Assembly: GCF_988243305.1 (NCBI RefSeq)
Contig: NZ_OZ547136.1
Length of the DNA stretch: 64,000 nucleotides
Direction: 5' to 3' (one strand)
Position 1 is the stretch's first letter, and each line of letters begins with the position of its first letter. Position numbers and translations under genes: made by a program. The notes beneath the pieces were generated by a model that saw only the letters and a program-made list of their open reading frames with translations, made no database searches and was not told where the DNA came from. Of the stretch, positions 6,712 through 24,197 are shown piece after piece.

Positions 6712-6720
6712 TCTGACCTT

Positions 6721-6760
6721 CTTCAGCGGCTGCCTTTCAGGCAGTCGCTGAAGTTTCTTT
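6721..6760 (+). terminator. Rho-independent terminator downstream of katG
   Basis: Hairpin cttcagcggctgcc-tttc-aggcagtcgctgaag followed by tttcttt. Confidence 0.6.
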
Positions 6761-6804
6761 ACCGGCGTATAGTGTCCACAGGAAAACTACACACTGGATC
6801 TCTC

Positions 6805-7736: not shown

Positions 7737-8354
7737 TTATTTAACAAAATACCGATAGTGCCCCACCATCCGCCAGCTAAACAGCACGTCTTCTTCCTGC
7801 GCGCCTGCGCCAATGTTATGTATCACCAGCGGCGTACCGTCGCGGGCACAGCCATCTGACACCACCCCAATATGCGCCAGCCCGTTATCTAATCGCCAGG
7901 AGACAATATCGCCCGCTTGATAATCACCGGGGTTCTTGCTGGTGGGGCGTGTTTTATCATGGCGGCTAAACCAGGTTTCCAGATTAGGCACCCGACGGTG
8001 ATCGATGTTGCTGTCCGGGCGCTTTAACTGCCATTTTTGCGGGTACTCAGCAAAATTCTTCGCCATATCTTCGTGAACCAGTTTCTGCAAATCGACCTTC
8101 TGGCTGCGCAAGGCGCGGATCACCACATCGGAACATACGCCGCGTTCTTGCGGGACATCACCGCCAGGATAGGTAAGCTGCACATACGCCGGATCGTAAA
8201 ATAGCGTGCTGCCGATTTGCTGTCTGGCACCGTCTGCGATGGCAAGGTTGGTGTTGGCCTGGATTTGTACCACGGTTGGTGGAACGGCGGGAGATTTTAA
8301 GGAGTGGCTGGTAAATGCCGTTAGCAGGCTGACCAGCGCCAGTGAAGCTTTCAT
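7737..8354 (-). CDS. yijF: DUF1287-family periplasmic protein
   Basis: 205-aa ORF with N-terminal signal peptide MKASLALVSLLTAF; synteny. Confidence 0.85.
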   Translation of the reverse strand: MKASLALVSLLTAFTSHSLKSPAVPPTVVQIQANTNLAIADGARQQIGSTLFYDPAYVQLTYPGGDVPQERGVCSDVVIRALRSQKVDLQKLVHEDMAKNFAEYPQKWQLKRPDSNIDHRRVPNLETWFSRHDKTRPTSKNPGDYQAGDIVSWRLDNGLAHIGVVSDGCARDGTPLVIHNIGAGAQEEDVLFSWRMVGHYRYFVK

Positions 8355-8502
8355 CTGGTTCGTCCGTGAAAATAAGAGTCACAGATTCGACCTTCCGGGC
8401 TAACGATTGTTCTGTAGAGAAAATGTCCAGAAGCGGATAAAAAATTCCTGAACAACGTGTGAGTTTCAGACGGGTGATAACGTATAAAAAGTGCTCGAAC
8501 AG

Positions 8503-8606
8503 TCCCCTCTCCCCTTTGGGGAGAGGGTTAGGGTGAGGGGAACAGGCCAGCTCCGGGGCGAATATTTACCCTCACCCCGACCCTCTCCCTGAAAGGGCGA
8601 GGGGGA
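8503..8606. repeat. GC-rich palindromic intergenic repeat cluster (BIME/boxC-like), containing the unit GGGGAGAGGGTTAGGGTGAGGG and its inverted partner
   Basis: cccctctcccc/ggggagaggg hairpin and ccctcaccccgaccctctccctgaaagggcgaggggg read directly; the same 37-bp module recurs at 24114-24150. Confidence 0.6.
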
Positions 8607-8684
8607 AAAACATGCCCGCAGTGACGAGTGAGCCACTTTGCCTGCACTCTCAAACTCCCGGACAAGCCGGGAGTTTGGAGTAGG

Positions 8685-9788
8685 TTATTCCCACTCTTGC
8701 AGGAAACGCTGACCGTACTGGTCGGCTACCAGCAGAGCGGCGTAAACCTGATCTGGCGTCGCGCCGCCAGGCATGTTGTGGATGGTTTCACCTTCTGCAC
8801 ATGCCGCTTCTGCCACAATTCGCATTTTCGCCGGGACATCTTCTTTAATATCCAGTTGAGCGAGAGTTATTGGCAAACCTACCGCATGGCTAAGTGCAGC
8901 TACGGTTTCGATTTCCTCAACCGGCGCGTTTTCCAGTACCAGCTGCGTCAGCGTACCGAATGCCACTTTTTCACCGTGATAATAGTGATGCGCGTCCGGG
9001 ATAGCGGTCAGGCCGTTATGCACCGCATGAGCCGCCGCCAGTCCGCCGCTTTCAAAACCAACGCCGCTTAAATAGGTGTTCGCTTCAATCACGCGTTCCA
9101 GCGCAGGGGTTACTACATGCTGTTCGGCGGCAAGCATCGCTTTTTCGCCTTCTTCCAGCAGAGTGTTGTAGCACAGTTCTGCCAGTGCCAGCGCCGCCTG
9201 GGTGCACTTGCCGCCCGCCATAGTGGTAGCGCCGCTACGGGAACAGGCGCGTGCTTCAAACCAGGTTGCCAGCGCATCGCCGATACCCGCCGCTAACAGA
9301 CGTGCAGGAGCGCCAGCGACGATTTTGGTGTCGACAATGACCATATTCGGGTTATTTGGCAACAGTAGATAGCGGTCAAACTCACCCTCATCGGTGTAGA
9401 TAACAGACAATGCGCTGCACGGTGCATCGGTAGAGGCGATAGTCGGTGCGATCGCTACCGGAACACCCATGAAATGTGCCAGTGCTTTGGCAGTATCGAG
9501 GGTTTTTCCGCCACCGATACCGAGAATTGCGCCACACTGCGCAGTCTCCGCGATGCCACGCAGACGGTCGATCTCATTTTGCGAACATTCACCGCCAAAC
9601 GGCGCAATTTCTACTACCAGTCCAGCATCTTTAAAGCTTTTCTCGACAGTGGATTGAGCAAAACCTAAAACAAATTTGTCACCCACCACTAACCAGCGTT
9701 CTGCCAGCGGCTTCAGGTATTCGCCCAGACGATTAATCACATCAGCGCCCTGGATGTATTTACCCGGTGATTGAATAATGTGGTCCAT
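8685..9788 (-). CDS. gldA: Glycerol dehydrogenase
   Basis: ORF 8685..9827; ATG at 9786-9788 gives 367 aa ([17 protein letters not shown]...); iron-containing alcohol dehydrogenase family. Confidence 0.93.
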
Positions 9789-9798
9789 AATTGCTCCT

Positions 9799-10461
9799 TT
9801 AGAGATGAGTAGTGCCAAATGCGGCATTCCAGTCGTGTTCGAACTTCTCTATAGCTGACTCTACCGCAGGGGTGTTGAGCATTTGTTGCGCTACATCTAA
9901 GGGCAGGGTGATGGATTCACATCCTGCCAGTAAACAGTCCAGCGCCTGACGCGGCGTTTTAAAGCTGGCCGCCAGCACCATGCTTTCTGGTGCGTGCATT
10001 TCTAACAGCGCTTGCAGCTCCTGAACCGTACGAATGCCGTCCCCGCCCTGGGCATCTACGCGGTTAACATACGGAGCAACGTATTTTGCCCCTGCCAGCG
10101 CGGCCAGTAACCCTTGTGCAGCACTGTACACTGCGGTGCCAAGCGTAGTAATACCCTCTTTTTTCAGCATCTTAATGGCGGCCAGACCTTCGGAAGTCAC
10201 CGGGATTTTCACCACAATGCCCGGAATGGCGTCGCGCAGGCGCTTCGCTTCTTCCACCATACCCTGCGCGTCACGACTCATAGTCTGAGCAAACAGAATG
10301 CCCTCATCACCAATCGCTTTTTGCAGACGCGGCAGAACTTCCCATATGGACTCCTTGCTGGCAGCGATAATGCTCGGGTTAGTTGTCACCCCGGCAATGG
10401 GGAATATGCGTGCCAGACGTTCGACTTCTGCGACGTTAGCGGTGTCCAGATACAGTTCCAT
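9799..10461 (-). CDS. fsaB: Fructose-6-phosphate aldolase 2
   Basis: 220-aa [16 protein letters not shown]...; transaldolase-like fold; synteny. Confidence 0.92.
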
Positions 10462-23786: not shown

Positions 23787-24113
23787 ATTACCCCAGACAC
23801 CCCATCTTATCGTTTGATAGCCCTGTATCCTTCACGTCGCATTGGCGCGAATATGCTCGGGCTTTGCTTTTCGTCGTCTTTTATAAAGCCACGTAAAAGC
23901 GGTGACGTCAAATGCTGCGAAATCGCTTCAGCAAACGAATAAATAGCAGGAATTTACGCCATTAAATTCACGACGCTTTAAATAAGCGTAACTTATGGGA
24001 ATGTTAAAAAATCGCCTCAATTAACACCAAAGAGTTATGAGTTGTAGTTACCATTTGGGCATCATTTGAGATTGCTGACAAACTCGCTTACGGGTCAGTA
24101 TGGGCACGGTTTT

Positions 24114-24150
24114 CCCCTCACCCTAACCCTCTCCCCGAAGGGGCGAGGGG
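24114..24150. repeat. Second copy of the 37-bp GC-rich module CCCTCACCC(TA)ACCCTCTCCCC-GAA-GGGGCGAGGGG
   Basis: Near-identical to 8570-8606 in the same orientation; lies in the ppc-argE intergenic region. Confidence 0.6.
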
Positions 24151-24197
24151 ACTGTCCGTGCGCTTGCATGGCTTTGTCATCAGCCTGATTTGCTTTT

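What the first reader, a model, noticed from the sequence alone, without database searches (positions are those of the whole stretch)
8503..8606. Compound GC-rich palindromic element in the yijF-gldA spacer
A cccctctcccc/ggggagaggg hairpin is followed by GGGTGAGGGG and then, in inverted orientation, CCCTCACCCCGACCCTCTCCC-TGAAA-GGGCGAGGGGG. The result is a ~100-bp imperfect palindrome able to form long stem-loops on either strand. This looks like a BIME/boxC-type dispersed element rather than a simple terminator. The yijF-gldA spacer appears ~50 bp longer than I recall for K-12.
Basis: seen in the sequence. Interest (0 to 1): 0.3.

Follow-up and report, generated by a model that had tools for sequence, protein, structure and literature searches.

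The report
Known BoxC triplex-motif repeat pair
The GC-rich palindrome between yijF and gldA is an inverted pair of the already described E. coli BoxC (PIT/TMECO) repeat; in this strain it sits where K-12 carries a REP/BIME element, so it is an ordinary dispersed repeat at a strain-variable site.

Summary
Window 8503-8606 is an imperfect ~100-nt palindrome that folds far better than shuffled sequence.

It is not new. It is an inverted pair of BoxC / PIT / TMECO "intrastrand triplex" motifs (Holder et al. 2015, PMC4666352). Both halves match the published pattern exactly: a type A motif at 8505-8539(+) and a type B-like motif at 8569-8603(-). A third, single motif lies at 24115-24149(-). The family is dispersed, with a median of 16 places per E. 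coli genome and 23 motifs in K-12, five of them in such A+B pairs.

The spacer is 330 bp against 274 bp in K-12. The cause is replacement, not insertion: 177 bp here stand where K-12, 4592 of 5426 E. coli genomes and four other Escherichia species have a 121-bp BIME-1 (REP pair). 630 genomes carry the BoxC allele.

My additions are less certain. The pair is the core of a 185-bp unit (8467-8651). Its ~16-24-nt terminal arms also flank BIME-1 elements and resemble Yersinia YPAL ends. Both alleles lie between two copies of the gldA terminator hairpin, which looks like a mobile-element target duplication.

The element is already known, so interest is low.

The parts
8442..8466 (.). Decayed direct copy of the gldA terminator hairpin (AAATTCCTGAACAACGTGTGAGTTT). 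It is the left half of a target-duplication-like pair that brackets the element.
   Evidence: family D1: 72% identical to 8652-8676. In other Escherichia species the left copy is still a good hairpin (AAAACTCCCG..CGGGAGTTT). It is present in both the BoxC and the BIME alleles.
8467..8651 (.). The whole 185-bp repeat unit: left arm, TMECO A, 27-nt centre, TMECO B, right arm.
   Evidence: 85% identical over 8464-8654 to the gcvP-ygfF unit of K-12 (H69). Aligned with the sstT-alx, fepB-entC and ppc-argE units. Segment 8471-8647 is what differs from K-12.
8467..8484 (+). Left terminal arm (CAGACGGGTGATAACGTA), a diverged copy of the motif CAGACTGATGACAAAG.
   Evidence: 17 of 21 matches to the consensus of the other units. 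The motif with <=2 mismatches gives 17 hits in 148 kb of Escherichia DNA held, against 0.34 expected per 64 kb, and nearly all flank a TMECO or a REP.
8505..8540 (+). TMECO/BoxC motif, type A (second loop TTA), no stem mismatch: CCCTCTCCC-CTTTG-GGGAGAGGG-TTA-GGGTGAGGG-G.
   Evidence: Exact regex match to the published pattern (pattern from PMC4666352).
8541..8567 (.). 27-nt central spacer between the two inverted motifs (AACAGGCCAGCTCCGGGGCGAATATTT).
   Evidence: It is conserved in the other paired units (AACAGGCC.GCA..GG.GCGAA.ATT).
8568..8603 (-). TMECO/BoxC motif, type B-like (second loop TCG), one stem mismatch: CCCTCGCCC-TTTCA-GGGAGAGGG-TCG-GGGTGAGGG-T.
   Evidence: Exact regex match. K-12 motifs 12 and 20 carry the same TCG loop and are classed as type B.
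8633..8651 (+). Right terminal arm (CCACTTTGCCTGCACTCTC), inverted counterpart of the left arm.
   Evidence: 18 of 22 matches (including the following AAA) to the consensus CCAGTTTGTCAGCAATCTCAAA.
8651..8677 (-). gldA terminator-type hairpin (CAAACTCCCGG-CTTGT-CCGGGAGTTTG), just after the gldA stop codon (8685). It is not part of the repeat and is the right half of the duplication.
   Evidence: I3: 11-nt arms, 100% complementary. It is conserved in K-12 and in other Escherichia species.
24066..24188 (-). Second family member in the window: a short (~123-bp) unit in the ppc-argE spacer with a single type A motif (24115-24149) and both terminal arms.
   Evidence: It equals the long form minus 64 bp between the direct repeats AGGGTGAGGGG and AGGGCGAGGGG (D5). 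Other E. coli carry 1, 2, 4 or 6 REPs here instead.

Best explanation
The feature is an inverted pair of BoxC (also called PIT or TMECO) motifs. This is a known family of dispersed, intergenic, G/C-rich repeats of E. coli and relatives.

Structure. Each motif is a C-rich arm, a complementary G-rich arm, and a second G-rich arm. Published work shows that a single strand of it folds into a very stable purine-motif intrastrand triplex in vitro. Two inverted motifs together can form a ~100-nt hairpin or cruciform.

How it most likely works.
- It has no dedicated role in gldA or yijF expression. This is inferred from published negative tests and from free allelic replacement.
- It is a selfish, non-autonomous repeat: the core of a 185-bp unit with terminal inverted arms. 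Shown: the arms, the dispersal and the strain polymorphism.
- In this lineage the unit took the place of an older BIME-1 (REP pair) element with the same kind of arms, inside the same duplication of the gldA terminator hairpin. Shown: BIME-1 is ancestral, and the breakpoints lie at the unit ends. Inferred: whether the swap occurred by excision and re-insertion or by template switching.
- Once present, its ability to fold when single-stranded during replication makes the site unstable. Deletions between its internal direct repeats produce the short and mini forms seen elsewhere. Shown: the deletion forms. The replication-slippage mechanism is the published proposal.
For: Identity.
- Both halves and the ppc-argE copy match CCCTCNCCC-N3-6-GGGNGAGGG-N3-GGGNGAGGG[GTC-] exactly.
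- Holder et al. 2015 equate this motif with BoxC and PIT. They list 23 in MG1655, including five inverted A+B pairs, always intergenic.

Dispersal.
- The 200-bp unit has 1-28 places per E. coli genome, median 16.

Not chance.
- Shuffle tests.

Replacement.
- The alignment with K-12 shows a y REP, an IHF-type linker and a z1 REP where the window has the unit.
- 630 genomes have the BoxC allele and 4592 the BIME allele.
- E. sp. E1V33, E. whittamii, E. albertii and one further Escherichia species carry BIME-1 at this place.

Arms.
-.
- The 30-nt BIME-1 arm alone has a median of 15 places per genome.

Mobile behaviour of an element with the same arms.
- E. whittamii has an armed BIME-1 in katG-yijE between two copies of a ~29-bp hairpin. 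Five other Escherichia sequences (the window, K-12 and three other species) have one hairpin and no element.

Deletion derivatives.
- A 64-bp collapse gives the short form.
- A 76-bp collapse is seen at sstT-alx.

Published data.
- Triplex Tm 70-82 C by CD and NMR; no promoter or terminator activity; TM loci are more rearranged than control loci.
Against: - Holder et al. found no association of the motif with mobile elements.
- Five of the ten E. coli loci I aligned (window, K-12, YPE12 and ET625) lack the arms. All five are K-12 loci: hrpB-mrcB, lldD-trmL, tauD-hemB, frlR-yhfS and xynR-argF. The arms are therefore not a universal part of the family.
- No transposase or other mobilising enzyme was identified.
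- No empty site exists for this locus.
- The hairpin duplication is shared with the BIME allele, so it cannot be credited to the BoxC unit.
- The nearest other copy in E. coli is only 85% identical, so no recent donor is visible.
- Triplex formation was not detected in vivo by DMS footprinting.
Confidence: 0.9

Rival explanations
1. It is a transcription terminator or an mRNA-stabilising 3' structure for gldA, or an attenuator or insulator in front of yijF.
For: The element lies 3' of gldA and 5' of yijF on the transcribed strand. It folds very stably as RNA. REP elements at the same place in K-12 are commonly credited with such roles (background knowledge).
Against: - gldA has its own conserved hairpin directly after the stop codon (8651-8677), and it is kept in every allele and species.
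- The terminator scan finds no stem plus T-run at the palindrome, only a weak 5-pair site at 8628-8615.
- PIT elements showed no promoter or terminator activity when tested, as cited in PMC4666352.
- The element is absent from 88% of E. coli genomes at this site.
Confidence: 0.07
2. It is a local duplication or a strain-specific oddity with no relation to catalogued repeats.
For: Only two loci in the 64-kb window carry the 22-nt unit.
Against: The unit has a median of 16 places per genome across 5424 E. coli genomes. It matches a published family pattern. Near-full-length copies at 82-85% identity sit at unrelated loci such as gcvP-ygfF.
Confidence: 0.01
3. It is a REP/BIME element, mobilised or processed by the REP-associated tyrosine transposase.
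For: It occupies the exact place of a BIME-1 and carries the same kind of outer arms.
Against: There is no palindromic unit of the GCCGGATG or GCCTGATG type and no GTAG/CTAC tag in 8467-8651. The core is the BoxC/TMECO motif instead.
Confidence: 0.02

Closest known systems
BoxC / PIT element / TMECO intrastrand triplex motif of E. coli (Bachellier et al. 1990s; Hoyne et al. 2000; Holder et al. 2015, PMC4666352)
   Same: It matches the pattern exactly. It is intergenic. It shows the inverted A+B pair configuration seen at five K-12 loci. It is dispersed, its copy number varies between strains, and the locus is rearranged between strains.
   Different: Nothing essential. This locus is not among the 23 K-12 motifs. 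The type A half has a perfect stem, whereas most K-12 type A motifs carry one mismatch.
BIME-1 / RIP (REP pair with an IHF-type linker) of E. coli
   Same: It occupies the same chromosomal position and lies inside the same flanking hairpin duplication. It has similar ~16-24-nt terminal arms and an overall palindromic build of 120-185 bp.
   Different: The core is entirely different: TMECO motifs instead of y and z1 REPs. There is no IHF-type linker and no GTAG/CTAC tags.
Yersinia YPAL / RU-2 miniature insertion sequences (De Gregorio et al. 2006; Delihas 2007, PMC2759123)
   Same: It is a ~170-185-bp palindromic, non-AT-rich unit. The ends resemble each other: YPAL ttcagactgctgacaaacc ... cactttgtcaataacctca against CAGACTGATGACAAAG ... 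CAGTTTGTCAGCAATCTCA. YPAL is reported to make target duplications of 3-26 bp at or next to dyad symmetries. That is the architecture seen here.
   Different: The internal sequence is unrelated. The comparison rests on one published YPAL sequence, and the primary YPAL paper could not be read.

Membership tests
BoxC / PIT / TMECO | Sequence pattern 5'-CCCTCNCCC N3-6 GGGNGAGGG N3 GGGNGAGGG[GTC-]-3' | tested here: met
   Regex on the window gives 8505-8539(+), 8569-8603(-) and 24115-24149(-), and no other match in 64 kb. The pattern is from PMC4666352.
BoxC / PIT / TMECO | Intergenic location | tested here: met
   It lies between yijF (7737-8354, -) and gldA (8685-9827, -).
BoxC / PIT / TMECO | Dispersed, multi-copy, with copy number varying between E. 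coli strains | tested here: met
   1-28 places per genome, median 16, in 5424 genomes. The paper reports 1-29 per strain.
BoxC / PIT / TMECO | Palindromic sites combine a type A (TTA loop) motif with a type B motif on the opposite strand | tested here: met
   Type A on the + strand and a TCG-loop motif on the - strand. TCG loops are classed as type B in K-12 motifs 12 and 20.
BoxC / PIT / TMECO | The single strand folds into a stable purine-motif triplex (CD and NMR) | not testable with these tools
   Shown for near-identical oligonucleotides in PMC4666352. The folding tools here model Watson-Crick pairs only.
REP / BIME | Palindromic units of the y, z1 or z2 type (GCCGGATG.. or GCCTGATG..) with a GTAG/CTAC tag | tested here: not met
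   None in 8467-8651. The K-12 allele at this place does have y and z1 units.
Intrinsic terminator | G+C-rich stem-loop followed directly by a T/U run on the transcribed strand | tested here: not met
   The scan finds no such site at the palindrome. The separate gldA hairpin at 8651-8677 is outside the element.
MITE (YPAL-like) | Terminal inverted repeats | tested here: met
   The arms 8467-8484 and 8633-8651 are inverted copies of a motif enriched about 20-fold over chance and found next to TMECOs and REPs. They are diverged in this copy.
MITE (YPAL-like) | Target-site duplication and an empty site elsewhere | tested here: inconclusive
   A 25-bp hairpin duplication brackets the unit (D1). 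It is shared with the older BIME allele, and no empty allele was found at this locus. A clean filled/empty pair exists only for an armed BIME-1 at katG-yijE in E. whittamii.
MITE (YPAL-like) | A cognate transposase or a parent insertion sequence with the same ends | not tested
Rfam RNA families | Score at or above a family's gathering threshold | tested here: not met
   Nothing at gathering level. The only sub-threshold hits are to microRNA hairpin models, which is expected for any long hairpin.

The most novel reading that the evidence does not exclude
BoxC/TMECO pair units, BIME-1/RIP units and Yersinia YPAL elements may be cargo variants of one miniature mobile-element superfamily. It would be defined by shared ~16-24-nt terminal arms (roughly SAGRYTGMTGACAAA). 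It would insert at terminator-type hairpins and duplicate the whole hairpin. Under this reading, the yijF-gldA site records a cargo swap (BIME-1 to TMECO pair) within one target duplication, and ppc-argE records a second replacement of a REP array (there a BIME-2 array) by a TMECO unit. This would give BoxC, which has had no mechanism of spread, a transposition-like one. It would also link it to the REP world.
Probability: 0.35. Interest if true: 0.5.

Novelty: already known. Interest (0 to 1): 0.2.

Why it matters
As found, it matters little. The element is a catalogued E. coli repeat with no demonstrated function. Its presence here in place of a BIME fits the published statement that these loci are unusually variable.

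It is useful for annotation. The 56-aa ORF at 8466-8636(-) is an artefact of the repeat, and the spacer difference from K-12 is not an assembly error.

The side observations could matter more if confirmed genome-wide. These are the shared arms with BIME-1 and YPAL, the hairpin-length target duplications, and BoxC and REP elements as alternative occupants of the same sites. Together they would offer a testable route by which BoxC motifs spread, something the published work left open.

Tried and rejected
- Rfam gave no family, only sub-threshold microRNA hairpin hits.
- The promoter and terminator scan found nothing at the palindrome.
- Delihas's 'RU-3' turned out to be a BIME, not this element.
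- The YPAL primary paper (PMC1636318) is not held. A search for the Bachellier BoxC review found nothing. A search for the arm sequences in papers returned only unrelated primers.
- gcvP-ygfF did not work as an empty-site test. Genomes without the unit also lack ygfF, so the comparison is not clean.
- I first applied a wrong coordinate offset to the paper's K-12 table. Four region fetches landed inside genes and were wasted. The table is in NC_000913.3 coordinates.
- G-quadruplex reading: the G-rich strand is G3N3G3N3G3N3G3. However, the published NMR shows 18 imino signals, fitting a triplex and not a quadruplex.
- I did not establish the phylogroup of the 630 carrier genomes or whether the 284 ppc-argE carriers are a subset of them.
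- I did not make a full single-genome census of units with and without arms, because whole genomes cannot be fetched.

Full report
**1. The observation**

Both flanking genes are on the minus strand: yijF at 7737-8354 and gldA at 8685-9827. The 330-bp spacer (8355-8684) is therefore downstream of gldA and upstream of yijF.

The repeat finder reports two features:
- a perfect 10-nt hairpin, 8505-8514 against 8518-8527;
- a 39-nt inverted repeat, 8504-8542 against 8566-8604, 82% complementary.

Folded as RNA, 8495-8615 gives -72.3 kcal/mol (+ strand) and -70.6 kcal/mol (- strand). The z-scores are -6.1 and -5.5, and no shuffle out of 200 did as well. With DNA parameters the whole 185-nt unit folds at about -39.5 kcal/mol on either strand, z -3.4 and -3.7.

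- 8518-8539(+);
- 8569-8590(-), with 3 mismatches;
- 24115-24136(-), an exact match in the ppc-argE spacer.

**2. What it is**

A full-text search for the core sequence led to Holder et al. [quoted passage not shown] That paper studies the motif 5'-CCCTCNCCC N3-6 GGGNGAGGG N3 GGGNGAGGG[GTC-]-3'. The authors call it TMECO and state that it is the element earlier described as BoxC and as the PIT element.

A regular expression for this pattern finds exactly three matches in the 64-kb window:
- 8505-8539(+), with a TTA second loop (type A) and a perfect stem;
- 8569-8603(-), with a TCG second loop and one stem mismatch;
- 24115-24149(-), type A with one mismatch.

K-12 MG1655 has 23 such motifs, all intergenic. 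Ten of them form five inverted pairs, each combining a type A and a type B motif. Motifs with a TCG loop (numbers 12 and 20) are classed as type B. The finding is therefore a 'palindromic TMECO site' of the kind already described.

The family is dispersed. A 200-bp query spanning the unit has 1 to 28 places per genome, median 16, in 5424 of 5426 complete E. coli genomes, almost all chromosomal. Rfam has no family for it.

An older survey lists BoxC as a 56-bp E. coli repeat with 32 copies (PMC2267715).

**3. What is published about function**

From PMC4666352:
- Single-stranded oligonucleotides form a very stable purine-motif triplex. The Tm is 70-82 C, and 18 imino signals in NMR argue against a G-quadruplex.
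- With the complementary strand present, a duplex forms.
- DMS footprinting did not detect the triplex in vivo.
- Earlier tests found no promoter or terminator activity.
- There is no relation to the function of neighbouring genes.
- Copy number ranges from 1 to 29 among E. coli strains. The motif is reported absent from Salmonella and reaches 143 copies in one Enterobacter asburiae genome.
- TMECO loci are more rearranged between strains than control intergenic sites. At palindromic sites, partial deletions that leave a hairpin are common.
- The authors saw no link to mobile elements and proposed replication stalling and slippage as the source of the instability.

**4. The locus compared with K-12 and other genomes**

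The K-12 spacer is 274 bp. The alignment shows identical flanks and a different middle. Window 8471-8647 (177 bp) stands where K-12 has 121 bp. Those 121 bp consist of:
- a y-type REP;
- a linker with an IHF-type site (AATTCAATATATTG);
- a z1-type REP.

This is a BIME-1 as defined in PMC3333891.

Among the 5426 genomes:
- 630 have the window-type spacer;
- 4592 have the K-12 type;
- most of the rest appear to be derivatives of the BIME allele, for example with IS621 or IS1397 inserted.

Four other Escherichia species all carry the BIME-1 at this place. They are E. sp. E1V33, E. whittamii, E. albertii, and a genome labelled E. coli that represents a separate species in the collection. The BIME allele is therefore ancestral and the BoxC allele derived.

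The carrier alleles are nearly uniform: 625 records are at least 99% identical. The window strain differs from K-12 by 3.2% in the flanking genes. This fits a single event in one lineage. I did not determine which lineage.

**5. The element is larger than the finding**

Homology to other copies runs over 8464-8654. The gcvP-ygfF unit of K-12 is 85% identical over 191 bp. Similar long units lie at sstT-alx and fepB-entC.

The ppc-argE copy in the window is a short form. It equals the long form minus 64 bp between the direct repeats AGGGTGAGGGG and AGGGCGAGGGG (D5). At sstT-alx some genomes have a 76-bp collapse between two GGGGAGAGGG repeats, which leaves a single hairpin. These are the 'palindrome effect' deletions of the paper.

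**6. Terminal arms and the hairpin duplication (my additions, less certain)**

The long and short units at four loci end in inverted copies of a motif close to CAGACTGATGACAAAG. These loci are yijF-gldA, gcvP-ygfF, ppc-argE and, on the left side only, sstT-alx.

Mononucleotide shuffles expect 0.34 per 64 kb. All hits but one lie directly beside a TMECO or a REP.

The same arms flank BIME-1 elements:
- the K-12-type allele keeps TTTCAGATTACTGGCACAG on the left;
- E. whittamii and one other species keep GTTTGTCTTCGGTCTCAAA or TTGTCATCAGTCTCAAA on the right;
- a 30-nt BIME-1 arm without any REP sequence has a median of 15 places per E. coli genome.

The one published YPAL/RU-2 sequence from Yersinia has similar ends (PMC2759123; alignment).

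Both alleles at yijF-gldA lie between two direct copies of the gldA terminator hairpin AAACTCCCGG-N5-CCGGGAGTTT. The left copy (8442-8466) has decayed to 72% identity in this strain but is a good hairpin in the other species (D1).

A clean filled/empty comparison exists for an element with these arms. In E. whittamii the katG-yijE spacer holds a 154-bp armed BIME-1 between two copies of the hairpin CTTCAGCGACTGCC-N4-5-GGCAGTCGCT. The window (6712-6771), K-12 and three other species have one hairpin and nothing else. That is a target duplication of about 29 bp spanning a hairpin. YPAL elements are reported to make duplications of 3-26 bp at or next to dyad symmetries.

Caveats:
- Five of the ten loci I aligned lack the arms, all five of them in K-12.
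- The duplication at yijF-gldA predates the BoxC allele.
- No mobilising enzyme is known.
- The nearest other E. coli copy is only 85% identical.

**7. A second replacement in the same window**

At ppc-argE the short BoxC unit (284 genomes) stands where other E. coli have arrays of 1, 2, 4 or 6 REPs. A fragment resembling the BIME linker (GGGCATCATTTGAG) remains next to the unit. Both BoxC copies in this window therefore occupy sites that hold REP elements in K-12.

**8. Mechanism and rivals**

I commit to the following reading.
- It is a known BoxC/TMECO pair, the core of a non-autonomous repeat unit, with no dedicated role in gldA or yijF expression.
- Its effect is structural. When single-stranded it folds as a hairpin, cruciform or triplex, and this promotes local rearrangement.
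- It reached this site by replacing a BIME-1 that has the same type of ends.

The terminator reading is unlikely for four reasons:
- gldA keeps its own conserved hairpin;
- no T-run follows the palindrome;
- published tests were negative;
- 88% of genomes do without the element at this site.

Local duplication is excluded. REP/BIME membership fails on the defining palindromic unit.

**9. Verdict**

The element is already known and ordinary, so interest is low. The shared arms, the hairpin duplications and the BoxC/REP allelism are worth a genome-wide follow-up, but they rest here on a handful of loci.

Noticed in passing
window 24066-24188 (ppc-argE spacer): A short BoxC/TMECO unit (284 of 5426 genomes) stands where other E. 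coli have REP arrays of 1 (B2-type), 2 (O157), 4 or 6 (K-12-like) REPs. A fragment resembling the BIME linker remains beside it.
   Followed up: partly
L149:5634-5787 (E. whittamii katG-yijE); empty site at window 6712-6771: A 154-bp BIME-1 with terminal arms is inserted with a ~29-bp duplication of the katG terminator hairpin. The window, K-12 and three other Escherichia species have the single hairpin only. This is a clean filled/empty pair for a REP-containing unit.
   Followed up: partly
L137 and L138 (yijF-gldA spacer of strains 08_3323 and EC36): In some genomes the BIME allele of this spacer carries an IS621 (IS110 family) or an IS1397 (IS3 family) insertion. Both are known REP-targeting insertion sequences.
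   Followed up: no
L135 and L136 (sstT-alx spacer of strains HS and O145:NM FWSEC0002): Where most E. coli have a long BoxC unit, these strains have an unrelated G+C-rich insert. It makes the region 157-217 bp longer and has its own internal 60-bp length difference. I did not identify it.
   Followed up: no
L128 and L129 (gcvP-bglA in strains uk_P46212 and O55:H7 DEC5E): Genomes that lack the gcvP-ygfF BoxC unit also lack the ygfF gene, so gcvP is followed directly by bglA. The unit lies at the edge of a gene-sized indel.
   Followed up: partly
window 7737-8354 (yijF); loci L148-L217: Close YijF homologues (92-97% identity) were found only in Escherichia species. The next best matches (about 45-60%) are in Acidobacteria, Chryseobacterium, Acinetobacter and Verrucomicrobia. 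This suggests the gene was acquired horizontally by the genus.
   Followed up: no
L004-L123 (IMG/VR contigs): The module CCCTCTCCC-loop-GGGAGAGGG-NNN-GGGTGAGGG occurs in viral and metagenome contigs with G+C from 32% to 73%. The C-rich arm was not in my search pattern but is present in nearly all hits. Inverted pairs occur in several high-G+C contigs (for example L038, L041, L099 and L117). The motif family is much wider than Enterobacteria, as the ITxF survey also says.
   Followed up: partly
window 8466-8636 (-): A 56-aa GTG-initiated ORF runs through the repeat unit. It is most likely an artefact of the palindrome and a candidate for spurious 'hypothetical protein' calls.
   Followed up: no
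L147 (K-12 frlR-yhfS spacer): A single type A TMECO lies about 35 bp from a REP in the same spacer. This is another case of the two repeat families sharing an intergenic region.
   Followed up: no
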